From Candidatus Heimdallarchaeota archaeon (GTDB taxonomy: Archaea > Asgardarchaeota > Heimdallarchaeia > Hodarchaeales > Hodarchaeaceae), in the NCBI GenBank assembly GCA_019057635.1, contig DXJL01000156.1, forward strand, positions 64,146-128,145: a DNA stretch of 64,000 bases, read 5' to 3'. The notes below the pieces were generated by a model, which was given only the letters and a program-made list of their open reading frames with translations, did no database searches and was not told the DNA's origin. The position numbers were made by a program, and so were the translations under genes. Positions 9,999 through 27,386 of the stretch are shown here, in pieces; positions within the stretch are counted from its first letter, which is position 1, and each line of letters begins with the position of its first letter.

Positions 9999-10736
9999 TT
10001 GAAAATAGCTATAATTTCTGATATTCACGGAAATTTGGAAGCTCTAAATTCCGTTATCAACAATTTTAAAATCCATGGTAATATGGATCACGTTGTGTGT
10101 CTCGGAGATATCGTGGGCTATTATGCAAATCCCGTAGAATGTATTGATATCATCAAAAAACGATGCGACATTATAATTCAAGGTAATCATGATTCAGCTA
10201 TAACTGCTATAAATTTTGAGAAGAGAATAAAAGGGTTCAATGACACGGCGGCCAGTTCGCTAAGGTGGACTCGGAAACAATTATTACAAGAAGATAATAA
10301 AGATCAGTATCAATTCTTGAGAAAATTAAGAGGGAAAAAATCACTTTTGATTAATAAAAATGAATTTCTGTTCGTGCATGGAACTCCTGACAAGAAATGG
10401 GAATATTTTTTGTTTCCTTATTGGAATAATGAACCCTTGGATGAACAAAAGGTCAAATTAGACAAGTGGCTTGATCAATGGAATCTAGTAGCAATGGGAC
10501 ATACACACTGGGCTTTCCAATATGAAAAAAATAACCGTTATGTGATTAACCCTGGTAGTGTAGGCCAACCTAGAGATGAAAATCCTAACGCAAGTTATTA
10601 TATAGTAGAAGTCTCAGAAACACGGTTAAAAGTTGAGAACTTCCGAGTAAAATATGAAGTCGAAAAGACGTGTGAAGCGTTGAAACTGGCAAATCTTGAT
10701 GAATCCTTGTGTAGTCGGCTATTTCTTGGACAATAA
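9999..10736 (+). CDS. Calcineurin-like metallophosphoesterase (MJ0936/YfcE-type)
   Basis: Metal-binding motifs DIHGN, GDIVGY, GNHD and GHTH are in the canonical order. Confidence 0.8.
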   Translation: MKIAIISDIHGNLEALNSVINNFKIHGNMDHVVCLGDIVGYYANPVECIDIIKKRCDIIIQGNHDSAITAINFEKRIKGFNDTAASSLRWTRKQLLQEDNKDQYQFLRKLRGKKSLLINKNEFLFVHGTPDKKWEYFLFPYWNNEPLDEQKVKLDKWLDQWNLVAMGHTHWAFQYEKNNRYVINPGSVGQPRDENPNASYYIVEVSETRLKVENFRVKYEVEKTCEALKLANLDESLCSRLFLGQ

Positions 10737-10987
10737 TCTGTTGATTTTCTTCTATAATCAGTAAATAATAGCACCTATGGATTATAATCATGTAAATAAG
10801 TAAAATTTGTTTTGAAAATATTTCTACGGATTAATTTGCCATAGAAAGGGATGAATTCTAATAAGAAGATTTAAATAGGGAGCTCTTCAAAGAATAATTG
10901 AGTTAAATTTAATTTTTACTCATTACAATAACAATACACAATGATTTTGTGTATCGTTTCATTTTTCGGGACCATCGGTGTTAAATT

Positions 10988-13009
10988 TTGTCAAGTGAAT
11001 ATGATGCAAGTAGTATACAGGTTTTAGAAGGCCTTGAAGCGGTTCGTCGCCGTCCTGCTATGTATATTGGAAGTATAGATGAAAATGGGCTCCATCATCT
11101 GGTTTGGGAAATTGTTGACAATTCAGTAGACGAAGCCATGGCTGATTATTGTGATCAGATAAATGTGATATTAAGTCAAACAGAGCATGGACAAGAATCG
11201 ATAACCATCCAGGATAATGGTAGGGGAATTCCCACTGAAATTCATCCATATTATAATATATCTTCTTTAGAACTAGTGACTACTCGATTACATTCTGGGG
11301 GGAAATTTGACCATAAGTCATACAAAGTTAGCGGTGGACTTCATGGGGTCGGGATTGCTGTTGTGAACGCATTATCTCGGTGGATGCAAGTAAAAGTAAA
11401 AAGAAATAACCTGGTACAAATGCAAGAGTATGTTAGGGGTGAAACAATATCCCATGGAGTGATTACTGTTGAGGAGGAATGGGACCATGAGAGTGGAACC
11501 TATATTACTTTTATCCCAGATCCTGAAATCTTCGAAGTAACTAGTGTAGATGTTGTTACTATCCGAAATCGCTTACGGGAATTAGCTTTCTTAAATAAAG
11601 GTCTTACAATTACGCTTATAGACGAAAGAAAACCTGAAATTCCTATTTTTGAGTCACAGAGCGATTTAGGAGAAAATGAATCCCATACACAGTCTGAATC
11701 TGCAGAAGATTTGGGTAGTGAATTGCCAGTTAACAAATGGATTTTTCATTTCGATGGAGGGATAAAAGCATATGTCGATCAACTTGCAGCAACTCGTATT
11801 CATGATGATATCCCCTATTTTGATGTGAACGTAGAGAAAATGCAAGTAGAAGTAGCACTTGTTTATGACCGTTCCGAAAGAGATTTGATTAATACCTTTA
11901 CCAATAATATTAATACAAGACACGGGGGAACACATTTATCAGGTTTCAAATCCGGATTAACACGAGCTTTAAATGCCTATGTTTTGAAAAATGAGCAATT
12001 AATCCGTAATCCACATTTGAAGAAGGGACTAAAAGAAAAAAGATCAATTTTTACTGGAAACGATGTCCGTGAAGGCCTAGTCGCGGTGGTTTCTGTGAAA
12101 ATCATGAACCCTCAATTTGAAGGGCAAACTAAAAGTAAATTAGGAAATAGTGAGGTAAAGGGAGTGGTAGAGAGCTGTGTGTATGAAAATGTACTCAAAT
12201 TTCTTGATGAACACCCTGAAAGTTCTCGGAGTATCATAGAAAAATGTGAAGCGGCCGCTACCCTGCGTATGAAGTTTCGGCAAATTCGAGAGGCAGTTAG
12301 AAAAACGCAAGGAAAGGGTTCGGGAAAATTAGTAGATTGTGCTGTTTCAGATCCTGCGAAACGGGAAATCTTTTTGGTTGAAGGAGATTCCGCTGGTGGA
12401 AGTGCTATTGAAGGTCGCTTTAGTGAATTTCAAGCAATTCTACCTTTACGTGGCAAGGTTATTAACGTAGAAAAGGCTCGATTAGAGAAAGCAATGAAAA
12501 ATAAGGAAATACTTGAGATTATACGAGCAATCGGAGCAGGTTATAAAGAAAATTTCCGGATTGAGAAAGTTCGTTATCATAAAATTGTTTTATTAATGGA
12601 TGCAGATATTGATGGTCATCATATCGTATGTCTTCTTCTAACATTCTTCTTCAGATATATGCCTGAACTAATTGATGAGGGATATCTTTATATTGCGCAA
12701 CCTCCTTTATTTCGGGTTAAAAAGGGAAATAAGGAAACATACGTTGTTTCGGAACAAGAAAGAGATGAAATTATACAATCGTGGGGAGGAAAGGTGGAAA
12801 TAAGCCGATTTAAAGGCCTTGGAGAGATGAACCCAATTCAACTTCGTGAAACCGTAATGGATCCAGAGAAAAGAACTCTGCTTCAGGTAACTCGGAAGAA
12901 TCTCATTGATGCTGAACGAATGTTCGTCACACTGATGGGTGAAGAAGTGGCGCCTAGACGTGAGTTCATTGAAGCTCATGCTTTAGAAGTGGAGAATTTA
13001 GATATATAG
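10988..13009 (+). CDS. gyrB: DNA gyrase subunit B (type IIA topoisomerase ATPase subunit), TTG start
   Basis: GHKL ATPase N-terminus (…YDASSIQVLEGLEAVRRRPAMYIG…, IVDNSVDEA, QDNGRGIP). Toprim motifs EGDSAGGSA and DADIDGHHI. C-terminal …GLGEMNPIQL…. Confidence 0.95.
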   Translation: MSSEYDASSIQVLEGLEAVRRRPAMYIGSIDENGLHHLVWEIVDNSVDEAMADYCDQINVILSQTEHGQESITIQDNGRGIPTEIHPYYNISSLELVTTRLHSGGKFDHKSYKVSGGLHGVGIAVVNALSRWMQVKVKRNNLVQMQEYVRGETISHGVITVEEEWDHESGTYITFIPDPEIFEVTSVDVVTIRNRLRELAFLNKGLTITLIDERKPEIPIFESQSDLGENESHTQSESAEDLGSELPVNKWIFHFDGGIKAYVDQLAATRIHDDIPYFDVNVEKMQVEVALVYDRSERDLINTFTNNINTRHGGTHLSGFKSGLTRALNAYVLKNEQLIRNPHLKKGLKEKRSIFTGNDVREGLVAVVSVKIMNPQFEGQTKSKLGNSEVKGVVESCVYENVLKFLDEHPESSRSIIEKCEAAATLRMKFRQIREAVRKTQGKGSGKLVDCAVSDPAKREIFLVEGDSAGGSAIEGRFSEFQAILPLRGKVINVEKARLEKAMKNKEILEIIRAIGAGYKENFRIEKVRYHKIVLLMDADIDGHHIVCLLLTFFFRYMPELIDEGYLYIAQPPLFRVKKGNKETYVVSEQERDEIIQSWGGKVEISRFKGLGEMNPIQLRETVMDPEKRTLLQVTRKNLIDAERMFVTLMGEEVAPRREFIEAHALEVENLDI

Positions 13010-13031
13010 CATATAAAGTGATGAATTTAAG

Positions 13032-15539
13032 ATGAGTAGTAATATTAGGATTACTCCTATTGAAAAAACCATGGCCAAGAGTTATTTGGAGTATTCGATG
13101 TCTGTTATAACAAGCAGAGCGCTTCCCCACGTGAGAGATGGTTTGAAACCTGTTCATAGGCGAATTTTATGGGCAATGTATAATTTGGGTTTGACTCATA
13201 ACCGACCACCGAGGAAATGTGCTCGAACAATTGGAGAAACAAGTGCAAAATATCATCCACACGGAGGAAATTCGGTTTATGATGCACTGGTTCGAATGGC
13301 CCAACCTTTTTCTCTCAGATATCCCTTAATTCAGGGTCAAGGTAACTTTGGAAGTATGGATGGACAACCCGCTGCAGCTATGCGTTATACTGAAGCCAGA
13401 ATGGCTGAGATTTCCAATGAAATTCTTATGGACATCAATAAAAACACTGTTGATCTCATAGACAATTTTGATGGGTTAGATAAAGAACCAGTTATTCTTC
13501 CTGCTAAGATTCCTAATCTTCTAATTAATGGAGTAATGGGGATAGCTGTTGGAATGGCTACCTCAATGCCCCCTCACAATTTAGGGGAAGTTTTAGATGG
13601 AGTTAAAGCCGTTATTGAAAACCCAGAAATTTCCATAATAGATTTAATGAATTATATTCCAGGCCCCGATTTTCCCACGGGAGGAGTTATTTTCGGCACC
13701 AAGGGGATAAAGCGAGCTTATCACACAGGAACAGGTAATGTAGTACTTAGGGCAAAATATGAATTTGAAGAGAAAAAAAATAAAACTAGTATTGTTATAA
13801 CAGAAGTTCCTTATCTCGTAAAACGACAGGATACAATAGAACATCGCGGTTTAGTTGATATAATTGAGGGAATGAAAGAAGCAGGTAAATTCCCAGAAAT
13901 CGGTAGTGTTAAGAATGAGTCCAACATCATTCGGGGTACAAGAATTGTTATCAATCTGAAGCACTCAGCCAACATCGAAGTTGTGCTGAATCGCTTGTTT
14001 AAATTCACTCCTATGCAAATCTCGTTTTCCATCAGAAATATGGTTCTTGTAGATGCAAAGGTGGGTGATGAGGTCAAAATTCGTCCGAAAAATTTAAACT
14101 TAAAAGAACTCCTAACTCAATTCATTGATCACAGACATGAGATAGTCGTACGTAGAACAGAATTTGATCTAAAAAAAGCCCGTGAGAGAGCTCATATATT
14201 AGAAGGAAGAAAAATTGTTGTTGAAAATCTTGATGAAGTAATTAAAATCATTAGAGGGTCAAGTAATGGATCTGAAGCGCAAACTGCTTTGATTAGTAAG
14301 TTTTTGTTTTCCGAGATCCAAGCAAAAGACATTCTCGCATTACCACTTAGGAGCTTAACACGATTTGATAGAGACAAAATACTCCAAGAGTATAAGGAAA
14401 CACTAGAAGCAATTAAGGATTATGAAGACATATTGGGGAGTGAACAACGCATCATAGACATAATAGTTAATGAAATTGATGAAATTAAATCCAAATATGG
14501 AGACCCAAGAAGAAGTAAAATTGTCCTTGATGACTCAGATAGCTATGAAAATTGGACTGACAAAACAGAAGAAGATTTCATCACGAAAGAAGATATTGTT
14601 ATCACTTTAACATCTAATGGTTATATTAAGTCGATATCCACCGATATGTACAATTCCCAACATCGTGGGGGTAAAGGTATTAAGTCAATGGATTTAGGAA
14701 AAGACGATTTCTTGCAGGAAATGATCGTTGCCTCTACTCACGACACAATTTTGTTCTTCACTGTTCATGGTACTGTCTATCGTTTTCGCGGATTTCAGAT
14801 TCCGATGTCTAAACAACGGGTTACAAAAGGAGTGAATATTGTAAATCTTCTCAAGATGGATAGAAGTGATAAAATCGTTGCCATCATCCGTGTTACTGAA
14901 TTCAATCCAGATCACTATCTGGTTTTAGCAACTAAAAATGGAATAATTAAGAAGTCTTCTTTGTCTGAATATGAAAATATTCGTTCTACTGGGATTATTG
15001 CACAAAAACTACGCGAGAATGATATGATAATTGGAGCTAAAGTTACTGATGGCACTAAAGGTATCATCCTTGCCACGAAAAAGGGAAAAGCGATTCGATT
15101 CAAAGAATCTGATGTACGAGTTGTGGGTAGGAGTAGTATCGGGGTAATGGGAATACGACTCAATTCGGACGATTCTGTTATAGATTTAGCTATTGTGGAT
15201 GAAAATAGGACTCTTTTGACCATATGTGAGAATGGCTATGGTAAACGATCTTCATTTGATAAATATCGAATTACAAGGCGAAATGGAAAAGGAGTTATTA
15301 ATATCAAAGCAACTAAACGAAATGGCGATGTGATTGCTGTAAAAAGTGTAAACGAAAAGGATTTACTTTTAATGGTTGCGAATGATGGGAAATTAATTCA
15401 AATACCACTAGAAGATATACGGGCGATTGGTCGTGCAACTTCTGGAGTAACTTTGATGCGTTTAGAGAAAGATAGTGGGGTGAAAATTTCATCTGTTGCA
15501 ATAATTGCAGGTGGTAATTCTAACCAGGGAGTTGATTGA
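13032..15539 (+). CDS. gyrA: DNA gyrase subunit A
   Basis: …LKPVHRRILWAM…; catalytic-Tyr context AAMRYTEARM; C-terminal β-pinwheel with GyrA-box QHRGGKGIKS, diagnostic of supercoiling gyrase. The stop abuts the next start (TGA-ATG). Confidence 0.95.
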   Translation: MSSNIRITPIEKTMAKSYLEYSMSVITSRALPHVRDGLKPVHRRILWAMYNLGLTHNRPPRKCARTIGETSAKYHPHGGNSVYDALVRMAQPFSLRYPLIQGQGNFGSMDGQPAAAMRYTEARMAEISNEILMDINKNTVDLIDNFDGLDKEPVILPAKIPNLLINGVMGIAVGMATSMPPHNLGEVLDGVKAVIENPEISIIDLMNYIPGPDFPTGGVIFGTKGIKRAYHTGTGNVVLRAKYEFEEKKNKTSIVITEVPYLVKRQDTIEHRGLVDIIEGMKEAGKFPEIGSVKNESNIIRGTRIVINLKHSANIEVVLNRLFKFTPMQISFSIRNMVLVDAKVGDEVKIRPKNLNLKELLTQFIDHRHEIVVRRTEFDLKKARERAHILEGRKIVVENLDEVIKIIRGSSNGSEAQTALISKFLFSEIQAKDILALPLRSLTRFDRDKILQEYKETLEAIKDYEDILGSEQRIIDIIVNEIDEIKSKYGDPRRSKIVLDDSDSYENWTDKTEEDFITKEDIVITLTSNGYIKSISTDMYNSQHRGGKGIKSMDLGKDDFLQEMIVASTHDTILFFTVHGTVYRFRGFQIPMSKQRVTKGVNIVNLLKMDRSDKIVAIIRVTEFNPDHYLVLATKNGIIKKSSLSEYENIRSTGIIAQKLRENDMIIGAKVTDGTKGIILATKKGKAIRFKESDVRVVGRSSIGVMGIRLNSDDSVIDLAIVDENRTLLTICENGYGKRSSFDKYRITRRNGKGVINIKATKRNGDVIAVKSVNEKDLLLMVANDGKLIQIPLEDIRAIGRATSGVTLMRLEKDSGVKISSVAIIAGGNSNQGVD

Positions 15540-18500
15540 ATGTCGCCTGCTTCAAAACCGTCTAAAAAAACTATTACTAGTGAAAAGGTTGTAAGAAGAT
15601 CCGCAGCGGATTTTTTCCAAGATAATAAAGCTATAGCGGGTTTCGATAATAGTATGAGGGTTGTTTTTACCAGTGTTCGTGAATTAGTAGAAAACGGTCT
15701 GGATGCAGCAGAACGAATGGGTCATTTGCCAGAACTCCATGTAACCATCAAGAAATTGCAGAAAGAAGAAATTGCTAGATTGTTAAACGTTAAGTCGTTT
15801 GAATCTTCAGAAAAACTCGATTTTCTACGTTTAACAGTAAGAGATAATGGGAGTGGGATACAGTGTGAATTTATACCACCTCTATTTGGTCGTGTTTTAA
15901 CTGGCAGTAATTATGGGTCTCGACAATCTCGTGGACGATTTGGCCTTGGGGCGAAAATGGTATTGTTAAACGCAATGTCTTCTGTGGACTTACCCTTGAT
16001 AATCAAATCTAAATATATCAATGAAGATTTTACAAGTTATCACGAATTAATGATTAATCTAGCTGAAAATGAACCAATAATTCTCGCTCAACGAGAAATC
16101 CCCCAAAATACAGCAGAAGCAATTTTTGAGTCGGGTACAGAGGTTTCTGTTACTTTTACTGGAGCTTGGAACCTTGCTTCCCGATATATTTATGAGTATT
16201 TCTTCCAATTAGCAATGATCACCCCATATGCGAGTTTTTTTATCCAATATCCCGATTCAGAGGCACCAATTGCGTTAGAACGAGTAGTTGAGGAGATGCC
16301 AACATATCCTCGTATTGCTAAAGTCCATCCATGGGGGACCGATATAACTCAATTCAAAAGAGAACTGAGTGTTACTAACAGTGAAACCATGGAAGTATTT
16401 CTCCAAGAACATTTCCAAGGTATGGGTCCTAAAATAGCACGTGATTTCCTCGACTTTGTTAAAATCGATTATCTGTTAAATCCCAAAAAACTTAGTGCCA
16501 CTGCAATTCGGAGAATTATCCATGAAGGCTTTGCAGTACCCGACCGGGACAAAACCAAGAGAAAAGACCAAAAATACTTTCCATTCAAACGACCTAGTGG
16601 AGATTCATTATCGCCTCTTAGCTGGGAATTACTAGAGAAGGGTATTAGCAAAGAATTATCCCCTCAATTTGCAAAAGCAACCTCTGGAGATGTTTCAGCA
16701 CATAGTGGACATCCTTTTATAGTAGAGGCTGCATTAGCATATGGTGGTCCAAACCTTTCAAAAGATGAAGGTTCTAGAGGAGCTAATCCTAAGATTTATC
16801 GTTTTGCAAACCGAATTCCCTTACTTTTTGGTGCAGGAAATGATATTATATCGAAATGCGTTCAAAAGATGAACTGGAAGAATTATAAAATTAATATTAA
16901 TAAAGCACCAATAGCAATTGTTGTTTCGGTTGTATCTTCTAAAATTCCTTTCCCCGAGACTAGTAAGGAATATATTGCTGATGTTGATGAATTAAGAGAC
17001 GAAATTTACAGAGTTTTGAAGAAATTAGCAAGAGGATTAAGTCAACATCTGGGGCGAGCTGAACGAGAAAGAAGAGAGAACCAACGACAATCACGATTTG
17101 AAAGCGCAGCTCCAAAAGTCATTCAAAATCTTTCACAAATTCTGATTTCAGAAAACTCACCATATCTCTTAACATCAGCAGAAGAGATATCCAAATTACA
17201 AAAGGCACTCGCCTCTGCTATTCCACGGTTAGTAAGAAGAGCTTATCCTCCTAGTCCACAGATTTCTACGATCGGCGAATGGCTTCCAATGGATATTCAC
17301 CTGAAGCTTGTTGAAAATAATATCCAGACTATATATCAATTTTTACGAACACCTGTTCCTGAATTAAACCGCATTACAGGTATGTCTGTAGAAAGAATAG
17401 ATGCTATTGTTAGGAAGACTGTTACAAAACAAGAACAAACTTATCGCTCTCCAATTATTAGGGAGTTTGAATTCTTTTCTAAGGAAATTGAAAGGGATTT
17501 TTCGAAGTATAGAAACAGTAATACCATCCATAAGTCATTGAATAAACGATGGATTGTAAATGCCTTTGATTTTTTCTCTACTCCTGCTTCTCAGCTACGA
17601 GAAGTAGATGAATTTCCCGAGAAACTTGTTTATGAAACTAAAATAAAGACGATAAGTGAATTTTCAGAATCTACTTCCGATGACACATTTAGCCTAGAAT
17701 TACTTCCTTGGATAACTGGAGATATTGAGAAGGGATTTAACAGTGCGAAAATCAAAAATATATTGGAATATCTTGTCACATTCCCAGAAAAACTTTCCTC
17801 TATTCCAAAATTGGCGATCCGTCTAATTGAGAATGCAAAAGAAGAAATTCGAGAAGGTGTGAAAGAAGGATATATTGATCCAGAAAAAGTTATCGGAGCT
17901 TCAACCTTTGATTGGATGGATTATCATGTAACACCAAAATTAAGAGGAAGGAAAATTTCCAAGATTATTGAGTTCCTTAATACACCCTCAGAAAAGTTAG
18001 CTGAATTGAATGAATTAATTGACAACTTGATAATTAAATCCAAACATAAGTTGAAGGAAGCTTTTCATTCGTATAATGACAAAACTTCATTATTCAGAAT
18101 ACCTGGCATTCATGAATCGATGCTATCCGATTTGGATAGATTAAATGTTCAGGGTTTTATAGATTTTCTCTTGATAAATGAGAAGGACTTACTTATCGTC
18201 CGTGGACTAATAGATGCTCTAATACTCATCAAACAGGATGAAATTCTTGACGAGATAAATTCTACGTTTGACCCTGTTCCAATTAAGAAAGCATATTGGC
18301 TTGATTTAGAATTAGAGAAGATCCTCCTGAAGAAAGGCATCTCAACGATTTTTGATTTTATTAGTTATCCAACTACGGAATTACGGAAAATAAAAGGGAT
18401 GGATTCCATGGTTTTAGAGACAATAAAGAAGACTTATGGAACTCCCATTACATTACTTGATAGTGCTGCTGTAGGGAAATTGGAATCATTAGAAATTTTA

Positions 18501-21500
18501 TGTCTTGAAGAGCTGATTTCTGTCCTTTCACGGAATAAAATCAAACCTAAACCATTATCTGATAAAGTTAAAGGAATATTGGAACAGTTAAAAGTACCAA
18601 TATGTTATTTACCAATCCCTAGTAAATATTATGCCTTACTTCATCATCTAGGAATATCAAAAGTAATAAATTTTCTTATCTGGCCAGATCATGATTTACA
18701 TAGAAAGTCGGGAATTTCTTATAAAATAATTGAAGACATTAAGAGTAAGATTACCTTAGAGAGTATTCAAAAGCAGATCTTACTAAAGAAACGACCAATT
18801 TCAATACTGGCAAATAACCTGGAAGGAAAATATTGGGCAAAACTTCTCAATTCAGATTTAAGTGTCCAAGAACTTTATTATAATCTACCGTATAATGAGA
18901 GCTCAATTCAAAAGCTTCAACTAACTCAAAAAGAAACCAATATGTTGATAGACCTATTTAATACACCCATTACTCGATTATCGCACATTCGACCAAGATG
19001 GGTAGATAGTTTAAGAAGTGGGGGAATAAAATCATTCATCGATTTTATTTCATGGTCCCCTGATGAAATAGCAGGAATAATAGGCCGAGATACAGAATAT
19101 GTTTCAGAATTAACAAAGAATATCCCTAAATTTTCTGATGGAATGGCTTTGATAGATCTTGGGGTATTTACAGCAGCTGAAATGAAAACATTAAAGACTC
19201 GTGGATATTCCACGGTTGAAAGTGTCTATTTCTGCGCAGATAAACAAACTTTTGGAATAATGGGCGTTAAATGGAAAAAGATTGAGAGATATCAAAGAAT
19301 TCTTGAAACCCCAATTGCAATGATTCAATTACAAGCGAGCAGTGATGAATCCCAAATCAGATTTTCTCATGATGGTTTGGAAGGCCTTGCAAACAATGGA
19401 ATAGACCAAATTATCAAACTGATCTATTGGCCACCAAATGAACTTAAATCAATACTAAACATATCTCAAAAGCGAATAGATGAATTAAAACAGGCTGTTG
19501 CAATCAAAGAACATGGAATGCCCTTGGAACAAGTCGCTGGGTATAATCGCAAAACAATTTCCACATTAACTAATTATGGTATTGAAACCGTCGAAGATTT
19601 ATATTTTAGTGCTAATGAAGATATGCTAGATGAAGAAGATGACTTAGATTTTTCGTATGTGAATAAAAGTATCGAAGCTCTTGATCTTCCAATAACTTAT
19701 CTAAATGGAATTATCCCTACTAAATATGTTGAAAAACTTGTCAACTATAGACTTGACACAATTTTACGATTTTTAATTTCTTCTCCAAATGAATTATCAA
19801 CTGTTTTGGAGACTCCACCGGAAAATGTTGAGAACCTCCGTAATAAAATAAACCTTATGCGTCTACGGGAATCAACAGAGACTTCTGTTTCAATAATCGA
19901 GGGATTAACTAGACAACAAACCCGTGCATTGGCTGAAGAAAACATTTTATCGATTTATAAATTTTTAACTACACCAGATGAACAGATTGCTAATATAATT
20001 GAGATAGAGCCGGAATTTCTTAAAACAATGAAGCTAGAATTAAATTTCGCGGGCATTAAAACAATTAAGGAAGAAAAAATGATTCCTCTAACAAAAATAT
20101 CATTGTTCGATAAAAATACCGTTAAAAAATTCGCCCGATATGGAATCGAAAGCTTAGCTGACCTTTATTATGTCGCTACTCCCAAATCAATTGAGGAAAG
20201 TGATTTGGAATGGCAAACTATATTAGACACCAGACTAGTGCTGGAAATGCCCATTGAGACGAGTACTATAATTACTAAGTCTGAACTCAAGGCCTTTCAC
20301 CAAAAGAAAATTTATTCTATATTCGATTTAATGATAGATTCATGGGAGGAGCTGAATAAGAAAACTGGGATTGAAATCGAAAGAATTAAGAAGATCCAAG
20401 ATTCTATTCGCATTAATGAAATAATTAACTTACTAAAAAATCTTTCAATTGAAAGAATCGATTTTCCACTCGATTATTTACAAAAGATAAATGCAAAGAA
20501 TTTAACCACGGTTTATAATCTACTTATCTCCACGGAAGAAGATCTATTTCTGAAAAAGCATAAGGAAAAGAAAATCCGTGTAACAACTGAATTGTGGACT
20601 GAATTATTTACAATTTTAGCAATTCCACTTTACCTAATACTAGGATCTGATAATGAGGACGTCAAAAAATTAAAGCAGAAGAAAGTTGATACGATTCGGC
20701 ATGTGTACTCTATTGATTCTGAAAAACTTACAAATATTTTAGGCCAACCTGCAGAAACTCTCTATTCTGAGTTAAGTAATCTCGACACTAAGGAACTTAA
20801 TCAACTATTAGCTATACCAATTAGTTTTATCCCCTCTCTGCCAATAGAATGGTTTTTCTCATTACGAAATGATTCTATTCTTCGAGTAGGTGATTTTATT
20901 AGGCTTAACCATCGAGATTTGGTATCATTGGTATCAGCGTCTTTTCCTAAGATTCGATCTGTATTCAATGATATCAATTTCGCTTCTTTAATGAAAAAAT
21001 TAGAGGAAGAGGCTATTGAAGTAACCAAATTATCAGGTGTTTTACCTCCCCAAACTATTAAAAAACTATCAACGAAAGGAATAACTTCTTTGCAAGCGTT
21101 AATTCTATTTAGTTCCGATGAATCGAAACTGGATGGAGTCGATGACTTTTTGCGAATACTGGATGGTCCAATTAATAGATTATCTGAGGAGTTTCAAGTA
21201 GCTGATTTACGTAAAATGTCTAATTCTGGCATTACTACCCTTGCTTCATGGTTTTCTGCTCCTAACGACGGCTTATCAACAATTTTGAGAATGAGATGTA
21301 AAGAAATAAATGATTTAAAACAGAATTTTAATTTCGAATTGGCTGGAAAGGCCGTTGATTCTGAAATAACGGTGTCTAGTATTATTGAATCTGGTTTTAT
21401 TGATTTTAGTGAATTATCTTCACATAAAGTCAACACTCTTGAAGATCTTTTATTCATTGAAATTGAGAGGATTGACGCATCTGATCAGTTTAAATCTCGA

Positions 21501-22496
21501 TTAAATGGCCTACGTGATGCTCTAAACTCTTCCCTTGCATACTATTCTTTAGTTCCCTCCGCTTATATAGTACCGCTTGCATTTAATGGAATTACATCTG
21601 TTTACAATCTAATTCAAACAGAATTTTCCCAATTAGAAGATCCTACTGGGGTAATAACAGAGGAATCTTATAACTTCGCTAGAAATTCAGTAAATTTAGT
21701 AGACATCTTAACTCACAAGAAAACAGAGTCTGAATTCCGAGTGAAGCTTTCTTCTTTACGAGCTTTTACTCCTAATCAACTTACAAAGATACAGGAACTC
21801 GGTGTTGATAACATAATTGATTTATACTTTCGATTAGACTCCGAAAGGTGTCCAAAATCCTTGATACCAGCGATAGATGGTGTTAAGCGAGTTCTTGAGA
21901 AACCTGTTGCAGTTTTACCTCTTGTTAAGGAAACATTCCCCGAAAAAATTCCTTTGCTGTATAATGTTGGTCTAACCTCAATTATAGAATTCTTGTTCTG
22001 GAATAAGGATGAACTGGCTGAAATTCTTGAGGTGAAAAGATATGAAATTTCCAAATATCGAAAAGTCAATCTCTCTGAGTTGAAACGGAAGAAGAATTTG
22101 GGAACTCCTATCCAGAATTTTGTTCGGCTTTCAGAGAAATATTATGAACCACTACATGAATTTGGCATTGACAATATTGAAGATCTGTATTTTAATGGTA
22201 AACGGTATGCTAAATTAATACCTGATGAGCTAGTTCCTCAAAAAGTATTGAATGCCTGCATATCTGACTTAGAAATGCCAGTAGTAAAACTAGCTGAACT
22301 ACCCATACCATCTGCTCAGGAGTTAGTAAAGAAAAGAATCACGAGAATTATTGATTTTATTTATTGGCCTGATGAGGATTTGAAGAAAACCCGTGGTCTT
22401 TCTGCTGCAAAAATAAAGAAGATAAGATCTAATGTTAGATTACGAAGGAAAACTGATGTTTTAGGTCAATTGGACTCCTATATGGGAGGAAATTAA
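15540..22496 (+). CDS. top6B: Giant topoisomerase VI subunit B fused to about 25 tandem (HhH)2-like repeats, 2318 aa
   Basis: The N-terminal 520 aa or so align collinearly with Top6B. The Bergerat/GHKL fold reads …FFQDNKAIAGFDN…VRELVENGLDAAE…DNGSGI…FGRVLTGSNYG…RGRFGLGAK…, and the transducer region reads …GHPFIVEAALAYGG…YRFANRIPLLF…. The remaining 1800 aa form repeated units of about 70 aa with consensus L..xGIxTφxDφφ..P.EL..I.GI…..KI, i.e. two helix-hairpin-helix-like motifs per unit. The ORF runs 6957 nt without a stop. Confidence 0.9.
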   Translation: MSPASKPSKKTITSEKVVRRSAADFFQDNKAIAGFDNSMRVVFTSVRELVENGLDAAERMGHLPELHVTIKKLQKEEIARLLNVKSFESSEKLDFLRLTVRDNGSGIQCEFIPPLFGRVLTGSNYGSRQSRGRFGLGAKMVLLNAMSSVDLPLIIKSKYINEDFTSYHELMINLAENEPIILAQREIPQNTAEAIFESGTEVSVTFTGAWNLASRYIYEYFFQLAMITPYASFFIQYPDSEAPIALERVVEEMPTYPRIAKVHPWGTDITQFKRELSVTNSETMEVFLQEHFQGMGPKIARDFLDFVKIDYLLNPKKLSATAIRRIIHEGFAVPDRDKTKRKDQKYFPFKRPSGDSLSPLSWELLEKGISKELSPQFAKATSGDVSAHSGHPFIVEAALAYGGPNLSKDEGSRGANPKIYRFANRIPLLFGAGNDIISKCVQKMNWKNYKININKAPIAIVVSVVSSKIPFPETSKEYIADVDELRDEIYRVLKKLARGLSQHLGRAERERRENQRQSRFESAAPKVIQNLSQILISENSPYLLTSAEEISKLQKALASAIPRLVRRAYPPSPQISTIGEWLPMDIHLKLVENNIQTIYQFLRTPVPELNRITGMSVERIDAIVRKTVTKQEQTYRSPIIREFEFFSKEIERDFSKYRNSNTIHKSLNKRWIVNAFDFFSTPASQLREVDEFPEKLVYETKIKTISEFSESTSDDTFSLELLPWITGDIEKGFNSAKIKNILEYLVTFPEKLSSIPKLAIRLIENAKEEIREGVKEGYIDPEKVIGASTFDWMDYHVTPKLRGRKISKIIEFLNTPSEKLAELNELIDNLIIKSKHKLKEAFHSYNDKTSLFRIPGIHESMLSDLDRLNVQGFIDFLLINEKDLLIVRGLIDALILIKQDEILDEINSTFDPVPIKKAYWLDLELEKILLKKGISTIFDFISYPTTELRKIKGMDSMVLETIKKTYGTPITLLDSAAVGKLESLEILCLEELISVLSRNKIKPKPLSDKVKGILEQLKVPICYLPIPSKYYALLHHLGISKVINFLIWPDHDLHRKSGISYKIIEDIKSKITLESIQKQILLKKRPISILANNLEGKYWAKLLNSDLSVQELYYNLPYNESSIQKLQLTQKETNMLIDLFNTPITRLSHIRPRWVDSLRSGGIKSFIDFISWSPDEIAGIIGRDTEYVSELTKNIPKFSDGMALIDLGVFTAAEMKTLKTRGYSTVESVYFCADKQTFGIMGVKWKKIERYQRILETPIAMIQLQASSDESQIRFSHDGLEGLANNGIDQIIKLIYWPPNELKSILNISQKRIDELKQAVAIKEHGMPLEQVAGYNRKTISTLTNYGIETVEDLYFSANEDMLDEEDDLDFSYVNKSIEALDLPITYLNGIIPTKYVEKLVNYRLDTILRFLISSPNELSTVLETPPENVENLRNKINLMRLRESTETSVSIIEGLTRQQTRALAEENILSIYKFLTTPDEQIANIIEIEPEFLKTMKLELNFAGIKTIKEEKMIPLTKISLFDKNTVKKFARYGIESLADLYYVATPKSIEESDLEWQTILDTRLVLEMPIETSTIITKSELKAFHQKKIYSIFDLMIDSWEELNKKTGIEIERIKKIQDSIRINEIINLLKNLSIERIDFPLDYLQKINAKNLTTVYNLLISTEEDLFLKKHKEKKIRVTTELWTELFTILAIPLYLILGSDNEDVKKLKQKKVDTIRHVYSIDSEKLTNILGQPAETLYSELSNLDTKELNQLLAIPISFIPSLPIEWFFSLRNDSILRVGDFIRLNHRDLVSLVSASFPKIRSVFNDINFASLMKKLEEEAIEVTKLSGVLPPQTIKKLSTKGITSLQALILFSSDESKLDGVDDFLRILDGPINRLSEEFQVADLRKMSNSGITTLASWFSAPNDGLSTILRMRCKEINDLKQNFNFELAGKAVDSEITVSSIIESGFIDFSELSSHKVNTLEDLLFIEIERIDASDQFKSRLNGLRDALNSSLAYYSLVPSAYIVPLAFNGITSVYNLIQTEFSQLEDPTGVITEESYNFARNSVNLVDILTHKKTESEFRVKLSSLRAFTPNQLTKIQELGVDNIIDLYFRLDSERCPKSLIPAIDGVKRVLEKPVAVLPLVKETFPEKIPLLYNVGLTSIIEFLFWNKDELAEILEVKRYEISKYRKVNLSELKRKKNLGTPIQNFVRLSEKYYEPLHEFGIDNIEDLYFNGKRYAKLIPDELVPQKVLNACISDLEMPVVKLAELPIPSAQELVKKRITRIIDFIYWPDEDLKKTRGLSAAKIKKIRSNVRLRRKTDVLGQLDSYMGGN

Positions 22497-22498
22497 GC

Positions 22499-23908
22499 GT
22501 GTCTGAAAAAAAACAACAAACAATAGTTTTGGAAGATTATTCTTTCAAGAATAAAGTAATTAAAGTGAAAATGGAACAAAATGATACGGTTCAAGGAGTT
22601 ATTGGTCTGATAAAGACTGCTCTTGGACTTAAAAAAGAAAAAATTCATATTTTATTTGGATTGAAGAAATCAAAATCCTTTGAAGTTTTAACAAAAAAGA
22701 GTCTCTCAAAATTATGGGAAATGACTGATCAAGGAGATGTTGTACTCCAGGTTCGTCGGAAAGTAAGCTTAACTGGATTAAAAAAAATAAGAGATACTGT
22801 CCGTGATTCAGATATTGATCTTCCAGTATCCATCTTGAAAGTTGATAATGTTTCTGCTGAAGAAACAAAATCTCGCTTAAATAGAGTCGCTTTAGAATTT
22901 CTGGATGAAATTGCAGAGGATCCACGGAATGCAGCTTTTCGGATTCCCTCCCGAAGTTCTGAAAATGTCGGTTATGATAATAATTCTAGAATGGTTCTTC
23001 TAGGGAGTAATGTTGTTGACAGACAATTCCGTCATTTAAGTAGTGTTCAAAGCGTCGTCCAATTAACTGGTTTAATGCGATATGTTACTGAAATTCTTGC
23101 AACTGAAAAACATGCAACAAAAAGACATTTATTTTATCGTGATGTGAACCTTTTCGGAAATCAAAGAGTTTCTGATGGATTGATCGAGGATCTTGGAGCC
23201 TTACTACGTGTATCGAGAAATTCGTTAAACGTTATTGCTTCTGCGAAAGGAAAAGTTATTGGAAGGCTTTCTTTCACCGAAGGTGGTGATCATATTGATT
23301 GTACGAAAGGATTGGGTGGGCACGCAATTACACCTATGCTTGATCAGGTGGAGAACTTTGATAGTGATGCAGAATTCATGTTAATAATTGAGAAAGATGC
23401 AGTTTTCCAAGATTTAGCGGAGGATAAATTCTTTAATTATCTCCCCTGCATACTAATAACTGCCTCAGGACAACCTGACATGGCTACTCGGTTATTTATA
23501 AAAAAGGCATATCAAGAATTAAAAATTCCTATTTTAGGGTTTTTAGATGCTGATCCTTATGGATTAGACATTTTGAGAGTATATTCAATAGGTAGTAAAG
23601 CTTTGAGTTTTGAAAGTGTTGAGTTGGCTGTACCTGATATTCGATGGTTGGGTTTATTACCTTCTGATATTGAGGAATATCAAATTCCAAAATCGGTTTT
23701 AATTAAAATGACAGAAAATGACAATAAACGGGCTGATGACTTGTTGAAAGAAGATTTTGTCAAATCACGTCCTGAGTGGGAAAAACAGATACTTATTATG
23801 AAAAATACAGGCAATAAAGCTGAAATACAGGCGTTAGCAAGTAAGAATTGGCGGTATATGACTGGAACATATCTTCCGACAAAGATTGATTCAGCAGACT
23901 GGGTATAG
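22499..23908 (+). CDS. top6A: Topoisomerase VI subunit A (Spo11 family) with extra N-terminal domain of about 95 aa, GTG start
   Basis: Toprim DxD motif FLDADPYGLDI. Winged-helix/5Y-CAP region …ATKRHLFYRD…. At 469 aa it is longer than the 370-390 aa typical of Top6A. The N-terminal extension has β-α-β patterning (VIKVKM…TVQGVIGLIKTALGL…IHILFG…DVVLQVRRK). Confidence 0.9.
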   Translation: MSEKKQQTIVLEDYSFKNKVIKVKMEQNDTVQGVIGLIKTALGLKKEKIHILFGLKKSKSFEVLTKKSLSKLWEMTDQGDVVLQVRRKVSLTGLKKIRDTVRDSDIDLPVSILKVDNVSAEETKSRLNRVALEFLDEIAEDPRNAAFRIPSRSSENVGYDNNSRMVLLGSNVVDRQFRHLSSVQSVVQLTGLMRYVTEILATEKHATKRHLFYRDVNLFGNQRVSDGLIEDLGALLRVSRNSLNVIASAKGKVIGRLSFTEGGDHIDCTKGLGGHAITPMLDQVENFDSDAEFMLIIEKDAVFQDLAEDKFFNYLPCILITASGQPDMATRLFIKKAYQELKIPILGFLDADPYGLDILRVYSIGSKALSFESVELAVPDIRWLGLLPSDIEEYQIPKSVLIKMTENDNKRADDLLKEDFVKSRPEWEKQILIMKNTGNKAEIQALASKNWRYMTGTYLPTKIDSADWV

Positions 23909-23920
23909 GTCTTTGGATAT

Positions 23921-24589
23921 ATGTGTCCTCTTACATTCAGCATTTTTCCTGAATTTAAGGAGAATTATTCCTATTATGCCCTCCAAAAAAATCTTGAATT
24001 AGTTGAAAGCGTTGTCCACTTCTCTAGAGGCCAATTCATGGGTCCAGAGAAAATTGAACTAATCAAAGAAAAACTCGGAAAAAAGTTGAAAGGGACCCGT
24101 TTTTACCCAGGAGGATCTAGTGTTCTTTTTGGATGGAGTTTTCCGTCTGAACAAGTAGGAAGGTTGATGTACAAACCATATTATAAACGGCATTTGACTC
24201 AATTGCTTATCCATTATTTTTGTATTGGTGAATTCGTAACTTCACTTAAAGAAATTGATCTAGAACCTGATATGCAAAAAATTCATTTTATGACCCCAAA
24301 AGTAATTGGGATAGCAAAAATAGAGGCTTTTGAAAAAGAATTTCCAACTCTCATTGTTGAAGAAGTCCAAGGTGAAACTATTAAAAAGGATCTGCATTTA
24401 GTGAAAGCTATTAGTCATATAACGAAAAATCTAGGCTTGAAGGGACTTATATGCGACCCATATCCTGCTAATTGGAAGTATTACTCCGACCAAGACAAAA
24501 AACATATTTCTTACATTGATCTCTTTAGTTCAAACACGCTTAAAGATATTAATGCACGCATTGCAAAATTGATTAATCAGTTACAATGA
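23921..24589 (+). CDS. Hypothetical protein, 222 aa (last gene of the topoisomerase cluster)
   Basis: Starts 13 nt after the top6A stop on the same strand. No recognisable motifs. Confidence 0.5.
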   Translation: MCPLTFSIFPEFKENYSYYALQKNLELVESVVHFSRGQFMGPEKIELIKEKLGKKLKGTRFYPGGSSVLFGWSFPSEQVGRLMYKPYYKRHLTQLLIHYFCIGEFVTSLKEIDLEPDMQKIHFMTPKVIGIAKIEAFEKEFPTLIVEEVQGETIKKDLHLVKAISHITKNLGLKGLICDPYPANWKYYSDQDKKHISYIDLFSSNTLKDINARIAKLINQLQ

Positions 24590-24603: not shown

Positions 24604-25170
24604 TCAACTCTGGTCACGATACGATACAGCGCGTCTAATAGCAGATGCAAATGCAGAAATAACACCAATGTTCTTAACTGCTGAAGTGGGAAAATATTGA
24701 GCATGCATTTTGTCTGCAAATCTCTGTCCGATATCGTCACTCACTTCCCTGTCAGCCTCTAAATCTACTTTATTACCAATTAGAACAGCTGGACTCTCTG
24801 GAATTACCTTTTTTGCTTCTTTAAACCAACTGGGAAGAGATAAAACTGTGAATTCCCTTGAGATATCAAAAACATAGATTATTGCGTGAGCACCTTCGTA
24901 AAAGAGCGGTCGAACTTTATGAAAGGCGGGTTGGCCTGAGAGATCCCAAAAAATAGCAGTGGTTGTACTTTTTCCTTCACTAGGGCTTTTGAGTTTAATA
25001 AAGGAGATATCTGCGCCAGCTGTAGGTTTATGTTCAAAATTACGTTTAGTAAAGACGGAAACAAGTTGTGTTTTTCCAACTAATGCATCGCCTGCTACAA
25101 CAATTTTATATTGACTATAATGAGGGATTTCAAATAGTATATCATTAGGTGCGGACAAGATAAGAACCAC
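24604..25170 (-). CDS. Ras/Rab-like small GTPase
   Basis: G1 GDALVGKT, G3 WDLSGQ, G4 GNKVDL. Confidence 0.85.
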   Translation of the reverse strand: MVLILSAPNDILFEIPHYSQYKIVVAGDALVGKTQLVSVFTKRNFEHKPTAGADISFIKLKSPSEGKSTTTAIFWDLSGQPAFHKVRPLFYEGAHAIIYVFDISREFTVLSLPSWFKEAKKVIPESPAVLIGNKVDLEADREVSDDIGQRFADKMHAQYFPTSAVKNIGVISAFASAIRRAVSYRDQS

Positions 25171-26714: not shown

Positions 26715-27386
26715 TTAATCCCACACTATTGAGTCAAGGACTTTTGAGGCAATATTCACTCCTAAATCGCCTAGAAATGATAAGTCTGAACTATCTTTTT
26801 GAGTACCTAATCTTATACACCTATCCTCAGTTGCGATTGTAATTCCATCATGTGGATCGACCTGGACAAGTGAGTTTTCTCCCTTTCGCACTGATATCTT
26901 CTTTTTATGGATTAAAACAAAGTTATCAGTTGATCCAAGTAGAAATAAATTACTCTTACCGAAAATAATGTATTTTACATCAGAGTCATTATCAATCTGA
27001 ATCTTGGTTTCTTTTTTTGTTAAAGATTTTCTGAGCTTGTAAATTAGTTTGTTTGCTTCGCTCCATATACCTTCTGTCTCATTTGAATCACCATTAACCT
27101 TGTATAAAGATTCTTGGACATCTGCTAGTTCTAATCCGAGAATAGCTAAACTTGATCCTATAAACTCAGTTGTTTCACCTATAGCTCCATGAGAACGTGT
27201 ATAAATGACTGAATCCACAATAACACTAATTTTTCCAATCAAAACAACCCCATTCAGTTCAGAATTACTTTGAAGTTCAACAAAATGCAATTTATCGAGA
27301 TTTCTTACTTTGAAGTATTTTTCATCAAGAATCTCAGGAGAGCCTCTCCAGGAATATAACTCATCCCCTAGTTCGAGTCTGATCAA
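26715..27386 (-). CDS. Hypothetical protein, 223 aa
   Basis: ORF directly downstream of the wHTH gene, 6 nt from it. Weak internal duplication with roadblock-like patterning. No firm family call. Confidence 0.45.
   Translation of the reverse strand: MIRLELGDELYSWRGSPEILDEKYFKVRNLDKLHFVELQSNSELNGVVLIGKISVIVDSVIYTRSHGAIGETTEFIGSSLAILGLELADVQESLYKVNGDSNETEGIWSEANKLIYKLRKSLTKKETKIQIDNDSDVKYIIFGKSNLFLLGSTDNFVLIHKKKISVRKGENSLVQVDPHDGITIATEDRCIRLGTQKDSSDLSFLGDLGVNIASKVLDSIVWD

What the first reader, a model, noticed from the sequence alone, without database searches (positions are those of the whole stretch)
15540..22496. Giant topoisomerase VI-B fused to about 25 tandem (HhH)2-like repeats
Topo VI B subunits are normally about 500-650 aa. 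This one is 2318 aa.

The first 520 aa or so are an ordinary GHKL ATPase plus transducer. The remaining 1800 aa are about 25 degenerate units of about 70 aa.

Each unit carries two helix-hairpin-helix-like motifs. The first reads L..xGI.Tφ.Dφφ, as in …ARYGIESLADLYY… and …LKKGISTIFDFISY…. The second reads P.EL..I.GI…..KI, as in …PTTELRKIKGMDSMVLETIKK… and …PDEDLKKTRGLSAAKIKKIRS….

The only topoisomerase I know with a long C-terminal train of (HhH)2 domains is topoisomerase V of Methanopyrus, which has 12 (HhH)2 domains on a type IB-like core. Here the same processivity and DNA-tethering solution appears grafted onto a type IIB ATPase subunit.

The repeats are degenerate at the DNA level, so this is an old amplification rather than a recent one.
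Basis: partly seen in the sequence, partly recalled or inferred. Interest (0 to 1): 0.9.

Follow-up and report, generated by a model that had tools for sequence, protein, structure and literature searches.

The report
Giant topoisomerase VI-B with HhH-domain train
This Asgard (Hodarchaeales) archaeon encodes a DNA topoisomerase VI B subunit four times the usual size, because 28 small helix-hairpin-helix domains follow its normal ATPase core; the fusion is real, strongly conserved, shared by related lineages (up to 4,341 residues), and I found no description of it in the papers searched.

Summary
ORF 15540..22496 encodes 2,318 aa. Residues 11-541 are a complete Top6B with intact ATPase and transducer motifs. 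Residues 572-2318 are 28 tandem helical units, not about 25, averaging 62 aa.

Eighteen units carry two hairpins. Ten are shortened. Only 13 first hairpins and 10 second hairpins keep the glycine.

Mis-assembly is excluded. The intact gene sits in a conserved gyrB-gyrA-top6B-top6A cluster in the species that were long enough to check. It has almost no indels at 52-85% identity, and dN/dS of the array is 0.06-0.10.

Heimdallarchaeaceae and Kariarchaeaceae carry still larger versions (3,563-4,341 aa).

What the array does is inferred, not shown. The best guess is two long arms beside the DNA gate that hold DNA through a few basic, glycine-bearing units. A protein-scaffold role is a serious rival, because the array is mildly acidic here.

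Verdict: a new variant of a known kind.

The parts
10988..13009 (+). gyrB (673 aa), first gene of the co-directional cluster
   Evidence: Pfam DNA_gyraseB, HATPase_c, Toprim and DNA_gyraseB_C. Syntenic in all Hodarchaeales loci long enough to show it.
13032..15539 (+). gyrA (835 aa). Its stop codon directly abuts the top6B start codon.
   Evidence: Pfam DNA_topoisoIV E 7e-148, and six DNA_gyraseA_C blades. Coordinates.
15540..22496 (+). Giant top6B ORF, 2318 aa
   Evidence: An identical protein, P0001, is in NCBI on a 128.6-kb contig.
15540..17162 (+). Canonical Top6B core (aa 1-541): GHKL ATPase, H2TH and transducer
   Evidence: NF003218, 423 bits over aa 11-541. Motifs ELVENGLD48, DNGSG102, GRFGLG132, WKNY446 and ETSKE473 are present. 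pI 9.15.
17163..17252 (+). Helical connector (aa 542-571) between the transducer and the array
   Evidence: Helices at model residues 108-129. pLDDT is low because the core was not included in the model.
17253..22493 (+). Array of 28 HhH (SAM-like) units, aa 572-2318. Unit boundaries in nt are listed.
18597..18794 (+). U08 (aa 1020-1085): full unit, both hairpin glycines conserved, net basic. A candidate DNA-contact unit.
   Evidence: Glycine at hairpin 1 in 100% and at hairpin 2 in 85% of orthologues. Mean charge +1.5. Closest unit is U28, hhalign 99%.
19143..19310 (+). U11 (aa 1202-1257): short 'DLYF'-type unit, consistently basic, both glycines conserved
   Evidence: Mean charge +4.8, range +3 to +8. 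Glycines in 96% and 100% of orthologues.
19518..19688 (+). U13 (aa 1327-1383): short unit with a near-invariant acidic loop, EDMLDEEDDLDF
   Evidence: Mean charge -9.4, conservation 0.84. Near-invariant E/D columns.
21903..22106 (+). U26 (aa 2122-2189): the most conserved unit, basic
   Evidence: Conservation 0.87, mean charge +4.8. Hairpin-1 glycine in 100% of orthologues.
22278..22493 (+). U28 (aa 2247-2318): terminal full unit followed by a basic tail, RLRRK
   Evidence: Charge +8 here, mean +5.8. Hairpin-2 glycine in 100% of orthologues.
22499..23908 (+). top6A (469 aa), starting 2 nt after the top6B stop. Carries an N-terminal extension of about 115 aa.
   Evidence: Pfam TOP6A-Spo11_Toprim E 8e-62 and TP6A_N E 1.5e-17. 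Motifs RHLFY209, IIEK296 and DADPYG350. NCBIfam alignments begin at aa 114-137.
23921..24589 (+). orf222, a conserved downstream gene of unknown function. It may belong to the cluster.
   Evidence: Found after top6A in every locus long enough to show it, 40-97% identity. No Pfam family.

Best explanation
SHOWN
- This is the functional B subunit of topoisomerase VI of a Hodarchaeales (Heimdallarchaeia, Asgard) archaeon.
- It is translated as one 2,318-aa chain from a gyrB-gyrA-top6B-top6A cluster.
- A normal GHKL-H2TH-transducer core (aa 1-541) is followed by 28 tandem domains of 50-79 aa. Each domain has the RAD51-N / RNAP alpha-CTD / NusA-AR type of helix-hairpin-helix fold.
- The array is ancient, fixed in unit number, and under purifying selection as strong as that on the catalytic core.

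INFERRED
- The Top6B transducer ends at the interface with Top6A. In an A2B2 enzyme the two arrays would therefore leave the body next to the DNA gate, as two long, mostly rigid helical arms.
- I think the arms most likely engage DNA without sequence preference. A minority of units would make the contacts: those that keep the hairpin glycines and a conserved positive charge (U08, U11, U26, U28 and its basic tail). The other units would serve as spacer and scaffold. This mirrors Topo V, where only some repeats touch the DNA.
- The effect would be to keep the enzyme on DNA, or to hold a second duplex near the gate. That would specialise Topo VI, for example towards decatenation or crossings, in a cell that also has gyrase.
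For: Identity and integrity:
- Top6B equivalog at 423 bits, with all catalytic motifs. Top6A lies 2 nt downstream with Tyr, Toprim E and DxD motifs.

Fold of the units:
- Unit profile against PDB sequences: DMC1 E 1.4e-4, RAD51 E 2e-3, alpha-CTD E 3e-3.

Reality and constraint:
- 27 full-length orthologues of 2,240-2,330 aa, 52-85% identical in the array, typically 0-8 indel residues over 1,780 aa.
- 18 GTDB species representatives. Most loci show a single uninterrupted tblastn alignment across the array, and synteny is conserved.
- dN/dS of the array is 0.06-0.10, against 0.03-0.11 for the core.
- Unit-specific charge and glycine patterns are conserved across orthologues.

Model quality:
- pLDDT 81 and pTM 0.55 for aa 1380-2318, with almost no disordered linkers.

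Precedents:
- In Topo V the (HhH)2 train surrounds DNA, only repeats 3-6 and 9 contact it, and the train acts as a processivity factor (PMC9489208).
- Lineage-specific Top6B C-terminal extensions correlate with the presence of gyrase in archaea, Asgard included (PMC9348778).
Against: - No DNA-binding test is possible with these tools.
- The array is net acidic in every Hodarchaeales orthologue (-11 to -51; pI 5.6-6.0). The DNA-contacting parts encoded in the same window are basic: Top6B core pI 9.15, GyrA CTD pI 9.3.
- Across units the conserved columns are those of the hydrophobic core. There is no shared basic patch; only one column reaches 56% K/R.
- 15 of 28 first hairpins and 18 of 28 second hairpins lack glycine.
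- The closest structural relatives include domains that work by protein-protein contact: NusA AR1/AR2, RAD51-paralogue NTDs and SAM domains.
- I had no model coordinates or PAE. The rigid-arm picture and the charge of any inner face are therefore unverified.
Confidence: 0.5

Rival explanations
1. The array is mainly a protein-protein scaffold, not a DNA binder. The HhH/SAM-like domains would recruit or anchor Topo VI to partners such as the replisome, SMC or chromatin proteins, gyrase, or other Topo VI molecules. Alternatively they would act as an autoinhibitory or steric cage that limits where the enzyme can act. NusA AR1/AR2, alpha-CTD-activator contacts, RAD51-paralogue NTDs and SAM domains work in this way.
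For: - The array is net acidic in all Hodarchaeales orthologues.
- A near-invariant acidic loop sits in U13.
- Half or more of the hairpin glycines are lost.
- There is no shared basic column pattern.
- Each unit has its own conserved sequence and there are no indels. That fits 28 distinct binding or packing surfaces better than 28 equivalent DNA clamps.
- Corbett's 'sequestration' idea for the Top6B CTD, as quoted in PMC9348778.
Against: - No partner has been identified.
- In Heimdallarchaeaceae the homologous arrays are basic (pI 8.7-9.0, +32 to +59), so acidity is not a property of the family.
- Several units keep the classic glycine hairpins together with conserved positive charge.
- The array is attached to a DNA enzyme next to its DNA gate.
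Confidence: 0.35
2. The long ORF is an assembly or annotation artefact: a chimera of top6B with a separate repeat-protein gene.
For: - In a few metagenome contigs the region is called as separate ORFs. L001 has 611 + 617 + 1033 aa. L021 has 622 aa plus 2,996 aa overlapping by 28 nt.
Against: - 27 independent full-length proteins of nearly identical length.
- Uninterrupted frame in most species loci, two of the 18 loci coming from chromosome-level assemblies.
- No stop codons in L003, L004, L005 or L019.
- The split cases keep the same gene order between gyrA or the Top6B core and top6A. They look like frameshifts in low-coverage assemblies.
Confidence: 0.01
3. The array is a weakly constrained, expandable low-complexity spacer with no specific function.
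For: - Units are very degenerate relative to each other, about 20% identity.
- Single units rarely reach Pfam significance on their own.
Against: - dN/dS 0.06-0.10.
- Fixed unit number and almost no indels across 52-85% identity.
- Confident helical models.
- No DNA-level repeats that would allow slippage.
Confidence: 0.03

Closest known systems
Topoisomerase V of Methanopyrus kandleri (type IC; 12 tandem (HhH)2 domains)
   Same: - A topoisomerase catalytic module followed by a long C-terminal train of tandem HhH-type domains.
- In Topo V the train surrounds DNA and only some repeats touch it (PMC9489208).
- Both trains are old and degenerate.
   Different: - The catalytic module is unrelated: a type IIB ATPase subunit here, a type IC core there.
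- The units are not detectably homologous in sequence. There is no Topo V hit at E <= 1.
- This protein has 28 units against 12.
- The array is net acidic here.
- AP-lyase sites were not examined.
Canonical archaeal Top6B, including Methanosarcina mazei Top6B with its Ig-like C-terminal domain
   Same: - The same GHKL-H2TH-transducer core and motifs, and pairing with Top6A.
- Like group II Euryarchaeota, this gyrase-encoding lineage carries an extra C-terminal module after the transducer (PMC9348778).
   Different: - The extension is about 1,750 aa of HhH domains, not about 100 aa of Ig fold.
- Other Top6Bs found in the search are 505-650 aa.
RAD51/DMC1/RadA and RAD51-paralogue N-terminal domains; RNA polymerase alpha-CTD; NusA AR1/AR2
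   Same: - The best sequence and structure matches for a single unit.
- The same layout: PIxxL element, helix, hairpin, helix, kink, helix, hairpin, helix.
   Different: - Those occur as one or two copies attached to recombinases or transcription proteins.
- Here 28 copies sit in tandem on a topoisomerase subunit, and ten of them have lost the second hairpin.
Giant Top6B proteins of other Heimdallarchaeia (database entries annotated only as 'DNA topoisomerase VI subunit B')
   Same: - The same fusion of a Top6B core with an HhH-unit array.
- Examples: Heimdallarchaeaceae 4,136-4,200 aa, Kariarchaeaceae 3,563 aa, and an 'Asgard group archaeon' entry, NPD87881.1, of 4,170 aa.
   Different: - They are 1.5 to 1.9 times longer.
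- Array sequence has diverged to about 23% identity.
- The Heimdallarchaeaceae arrays are basic rather than acidic.
- In one such locus (L002) the gene is not next to gyrA or top6A.

Membership tests
Topoisomerase VI subunit B (type IIB) | GHKL/Bergerat ATP-binding fold with N, G1 and G2 boxes | tested here: met
   ELVENGLD at 48, DNGSG at 102 and GRFGLG at 132. Pfam HATPase_c E 2.4e-5, below Pfam's cut-off when taken alone. NCBIfam equivalog NF003218 scores 423 bits against a cut-off of 274.
Topoisomerase VI subunit B (type IIB) | Transducer domain with WKxY and the switch-lysine region | tested here: met
   Pfam Topo-VIb_trans E 1.3e-49 over aa 352-516, covering the full model. WKNY at 446 and ETSKE at 473.
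Topoisomerase VI subunit B (type IIB) | Partner Top6A/Spo11 with catalytic tyrosine and Toprim acidic residues | tested here: met
   top6A lies 2 nt downstream. Pfam Toprim E 8e-62. RHLFY at 209, IIEK at 296 and DADPYG at 350. The adjacency is conserved in the Hodarchaeales loci long enough to show it.
Topoisomerase VI subunit B (type IIB) | ATP-dependent strand passage by an A2B2 heterotetramer | not testable with these tools
   Needs biochemistry.
HhH / (HhH)2 domains of the SAM-like fold (RAD51-N, alpha-CTD, NusA-AR type) | Compact domain of 4-5 helices built from two helix-hairpin-helix elements | tested here: met
HhH / (HhH)2 domains of the SAM-like fold (RAD51-N, alpha-CTD, NusA-AR type) | Sequence-level similarity to family profiles | tested here: met
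   Whole protein: RAD51D_N 70 bits (cut-off 27.3), HHH_5 41 bits (27) and RNA_pol_A_CTD 28.6 bits (23.8), each as a sum of weak stretches. The unit profile hits DMC1 at E 1.4e-4. Single units alone are mostly not significant.
HhH / (HhH)2 domains of the SAM-like fold (RAD51-N, alpha-CTD, NusA-AR type) | Glycine-containing hairpins that contact the DNA backbone | tested here: inconclusive
   Glycine is present in 13 of 28 first hairpins and 10 of 28 second hairpins, and the pattern is conserved between orthologues. DNA contact itself could not be tested.
Topoisomerase V (type IC) | N-terminal Topo V catalytic domain | tested here: not met
   The N-terminus is a Top6B core.
Topoisomerase V (type IC) | Repeats homologous to Topo V (HhH)2 domains | tested here: not met
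Topoisomerase V (type IC) | AP/dRP-lyase lysine clusters within repeats | not tested
   There is no alignment to Topo V repeats on which to map them.

The most novel reading that the evidence does not exclude
The 28-domain arms, and the arrays in relatives that run from about aa 570 to the C-terminus of proteins of up to 4,341 aa, form a defined DNA-enclosing or DNA-wrapping superstructure. This would give a type IIB topoisomerase a capability that no known Topo VI has. Examples are processive or crossing-geometry-selective decatenation, DNA wrapping that biases strand passage, or anchoring of chromosome loops. The structure would have evolved in the archaeal lineage closest to eukaryotes after it acquired gyrase. 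It would be a second, independent invention of the 'topoisomerase plus HhH clamp' principle known only from Topo V.
Probability: 0.2. Interest if true: 0.85.

Novelty: new variant of a known kind. Interest (0 to 1): 0.7.

Why it matters
Topo VI is the archaeal ancestor of the Spo11 machinery. Its B subunit is normally 500-650 aa, with at most a small C-terminal domain.

Here, in Heimdallarchaeia, the archaeal group placed closest to eukaryotes, the B subunit is 2,300-4,300 aa because of an ancient, strongly selected train of RAD51-N/alpha-CTD-like HhH domains.

- It would be one of the largest topoisomerase subunits I know of. That comparison rests on my own knowledge, not on a tool result.
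- It is a second, independent case, after Topo V, of a topoisomerase fused to a tandem HhH array.
- It fits the published idea that Topo VI acquires C-terminal modules when gyrase enters an archaeal lineage, and gives that idea its most extreme example.
- The system is defined and can be expressed: full-length enzyme against a truncation at aa 571. That comparison would test what such arrays do for a type II enzyme.

Tried and rejected
1. Exact-sequence look-up of the 2,318-aa product found nothing. An identical protein, P0001, does exist. I treat the miss as a limit of that index.

3. Pfam on single units gave only 3 weak hits among 28 units. The evidence comes from profiles and structure, not from single units.

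4. The afdb50 library was not available.

5. 'Short' Hodarchaeales Top6Bs such as P0035 (611 aa) looked like normal-size paralogues. They turned out to be frameshift-split copies of the giant gene.

6. P0034 (2,278 aa) looked like a distant relative of the same length. Its unit positions match the first half of proteins of about 4,160 aa, so it is probably a truncated call of the longer type. I did not verify this further.

7. I looked for a role of the Top6B CTD in Wendorff & Berger 2018 (PMC5922973) and in the 2026 cryo-EM paper (PMC13040014). Neither assigns it a DNA-binding function, so I make no such claim.

8. I tried net charge as a discriminator between DNA binding and protein binding. 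It differs between lineages and cannot decide the question.

9. I could not establish whether Hodarchaeales also carry a second, canonical Top6B. No complete short one carrying that name appeared among the best 120 hits, but whole genomes could not be scanned.
Full report
**1. Observation**

ORF 15540..22496 on the + strand starts with ATG and encodes 2,318 aa.

The gene is the third in a tightly packed, co-directional set:
- gyrB, 10988..13009.
- gyrA, 13032..15539. Its stop codon abuts the top6B start codon.
- top6B, 15540..22496.
- top6A, 22499..23908.
- a conserved gene of unknown function, 23921..24589.

**2. The core is a complete Top6B**

NCBIfam's Top6B equivalog NF003218 scores 423 bits (cut-off 274) over aa 11-541. 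Pfam Topo-VIb_trans covers its whole model at aa 352-516, E 1e-49.

The N, G1 and G2 boxes, WKxY and the switch-lysine region are present. In Top6A the RxxFY tyrosine motif, the Toprim glutamate and DxDxxG are present. Nothing suggests a degenerate enzyme.

**3. Anatomy of the extension**

A self-seeded HMM found 24 copies of a 38-aa core.

I made two AlphaFold2 models, each with 19 orthologue sequences aligned to the query:
- aa 440-1400: pLDDT 71, pTM 0.43.
- aa 1380-2318: pLDDT 81, pTM 0.55.

Both are all-helical and regular.

From the DSSP strings I defined 28 units between aa 572 and 2318, each 50-79 aa, mean about 62. In order, a unit has:
1. a short 'P-I-x-x-L' element;
2. helix A, 9 residues;
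3. a 4-residue hairpin, often xxGI;
4. helix B, 6 residues;
5. a kink, often Pro;
6. helix C;
7. a 3-residue hairpin, sometimes xGI;
8. helix D;
9. often a linker helix E.

Eighteen units have this full layout. Ten are shortened and lack the second hairpin: U07, U09, U11, U13, U16, U18, U21, U23, U25 and U27. U18 carries a basic beta-hairpin in its place.

The 28 units align as one family at about 20% mean identity. An HMM of them finds 28 hits in the orthologue P0006, which is 69% identical.

Profile-profile comparison splits the units into three groups:
- a 'long/WP' subfamily;
- a 'short/DLYF' subfamily (U11, U13, U16, U25, U27);
- seven units recognisable only by structure.

Twenty-one of the 28 units have a partner at more than 90% probability.

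There is no repetition at the DNA level.

**4. Fold of the unit**

The unit profile hits DMC1 (E 1.4e-4), RAD51 (E 2e-3) and the alpha-CTD (E 3e-3) among PDB sequences. It gives no Topo V chain at E <= 1.

On the whole protein Pfam gives RAD51D_N 70 bits, HHH_5 41 bits and RNA_pol_A_CTD 28.6 bits, each as a sum of weak stretches.

The units are therefore HhH domains of the RAD51-N/alpha-CTD type. The resemblance to Topo V is one of architecture, not of homology.

**5. The gene is real and constrained**

The repeat region retrieves 27 full-length proteins of 2,240-2,330 aa. Where they are named, the names are Hodarchaeales, Hodarchaeota or Heimdallarchaeota.

In a MAFFT alignment the array is 52-85% identical, with typically 0-8 indel residues over 1,780 aa. 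The core is 78-91% identical.

A scan of one genome per GTDB species found 18 species, including B3_Heim and Ca. Hodarchaeum mangrovi.

In the loci long enough to check, the order gyrB-gyrA-top6B-top6A-orf222 is kept, with a Ras-like gene on the opposite strand. In most of them the array is one uninterrupted tblastn alignment.

dN/dS of the array against three relatives is 0.06-0.10. The core gives 0.03-0.11.

Apparent 'short' versions are frameshift-split copies. Mis-assembly and weakly constrained spacer readings are therefore rejected.

**6. A wider family**

Searching 1.84 billion representative proteins with the unit profile gave 26 hits below E 1e-30. The long ones carry a full Top6B core at the N-terminus and measure 2,197-4,341 aa.

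Source names place them in:
- Heimdallarchaeaceae, 4,136-4,200 aa;
- Kariarchaeaceae, 3,563 aa;
- further Hodarchaeales, 2,332-2,412 aa;
- an 'Asgard group archaeon' entry of 4,170 aa.

Array-only hits fall in the same clusters as these proteins and are fragments. In the long proteins, recognisable units run from about aa 570 to the C-terminus.

The nearest Top6Bs outside this group are of ordinary size: Njordarchaeia 575 aa, and others 505-650 aa.

The window's protein is thus the short end of a Heimdallarchaeia-wide family.

**7. How it probably works**

Shown:
- an intact Topo VI;
- a fixed array of 28 domains;
- strong purifying selection;
- charge and glycine patterns that are specific to each unit and conserved between orthologues.

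Inferred: the transducer C-terminus lies at the A/B interface, which is established Topo VI structure. An A2B2 enzyme would therefore carry two arms emerging beside the DNA gate.

Candidate DNA-contact units combine conserved hairpin glycines with conserved positive charge:
- U08, mean charge +1.5.
- U11, +4.8.
- U26, +4.8.
- U28, +5.8, with the RLRRK tail.

In Topo V only repeats 3-6 and 9 touch DNA, while the train as a whole encloses it (PMC9489208). A minority of contact units is therefore compatible with a DNA-holding role.

Several points argue against a simple DNA-tether reading:
- The array is net acidic in all Hodarchaeales orthologues (-11 to -51; pI about 5.8). The Top6B core has pI 9.15 and the GyrA CTD pI 9.3.
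- The columns conserved across units are those of the hydrophobic core. There is no common basic patch.
- U13 carries a near-invariant acidic loop.
- Close structural relatives include protein-binding modules.
- The Heimdallarchaeaceae arrays are basic (pI 8.7-9.0), so charge is not a family constant.

I put the DNA-engaging-arm model at about 0.5 and a mainly protein-scaffold role at about 0.35.

**8. Context with gyrase**

Villain et al. (PMC9348778) reported that Top6B C-terminal extensions occur in gyrase-encoding archaea, Asgard included, and not in gyrase-less ones. They found gyrase in Heimdall-, Kari- and Hodarchaeota. Those are the lineages that carry the giant Top6B here.

In Hodarchaeales the four genes form one co-directional cluster. 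This fits co-regulation and a division of labour between the two enzymes, but it does not prove either.

**9. Literature**

I ran full-text searches combining topoisomerase VI or Top6B with HhH, Asgard, Heimdall or Hodarchaeales. I then read five papers:
- Villain 2022 (PMC9348778);
- Brinkmeier 2022 (PMC9665070), which lists an Asgard TopoVIB 'CTD +';
- Allen 2024 (PMC11302465);
- the 2025 Asgard replisome paper (PMC12680538);
- Garnier 2021 (PMC8185306).

I found no description of an HhH array or of Top6B proteins longer than 2,000 aa. The sequences are in public databases, annotated simply as Top6B. The library does not hold subscription-only papers, so a prior description cannot be excluded.

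**10. Verdict**

This is a new variant of a known kind, a type IIB topoisomerase subunit with an ancient RAD51-N/alpha-CTD-type HhH train. It is of clear interest to topoisomerase and Asgard biology. What the array does is still open.

Noticed in passing
window 10988-23908: gyrB, gyrA, top6B and top6A lie head to tail on one strand with gaps of 0-22 nt, so gyrase and Topo VI look co-transcribed. The order is conserved in the Hodarchaeales loci long enough to show it.
   Followed up: yes
window 22499-22858 (Top6A aa 1-120): Top6A is 469 aa, with an N-terminal extension of about 115 aa ahead of the region matched by all Top6A models. The full length is conserved in the orthologues. The only hint to its nature is a weak Pfam Ubiquitin_3 match, E 0.048.
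   Followed up: partly
window 23921-24589: A 222-aa ORF directly after top6A is found at the same place in every Hodarchaeales locus long enough to show it, at 40-97% identity. It has no Pfam family. It may be an accessory gene of the cluster.
   Followed up: partly
window 24604-25170 (- strand): A Ras/Roc-family small GTPase (Pfam Ras E 1e-33) lies next to the cluster and is syntenic in the orthologous loci. It is a typical Asgard eukaryote-like protein.
   Followed up: partly
P0163, P0168, P0280, P0286, P0297, P0317 (other metagenomes): Top6B proteins of 3,563-4,341 aa occur in Heimdallarchaeaceae and Kariarchaeaceae, with HhH units spread over the whole extension. The Heimdallarchaeaceae arrays are basic, unlike this one.
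   Followed up: partly
L021:4978-15809 (GCA_024280435.1): A more distant lineage (43% identity in the core) has a 622-aa Top6B and a 2,996-aa HhH-array ORF overlapping it by 28 nt, followed by top6A. This is either a frameshift error or a truly split gene.
   Followed up: no
window 19518-19688 (U13) and 20445-20624 (U18): U13 has a near-invariant acidic loop, EDMLDEEDDLDF. In U18 a basic beta-hairpin (KKHKEKKIRV) replaces the second hairpin. Both look like specific functional insertions.
   Followed up: partly
window 10001-24000: GC skew is +0.17 to +0.19 over gyrB, gyrA and top6A but about 0 over the array part of top6B, on the same strand. This probably reflects the array's different amino-acid composition. 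I did not analyse it.
   Followed up: no
window 3159-6026 (+), 7429-8670 (-) and 26715-27386 (-): Three sizeable ORFs of 955, 413 and 223 aa have no Pfam family at E <= 1e-3.
   Followed up: no
P0203, P0206, P0208, P0211 (weak hits of the unit profile): Unrelated proteins carry 3-7 tandem RNA_pol_A_CTD-type domains fused to other modules such as sigma-70 region 4, HTH, S1 and Clp_N. Tandem alpha-CTD-like arrays therefore exist outside topoisomerases.
   Followed up: no
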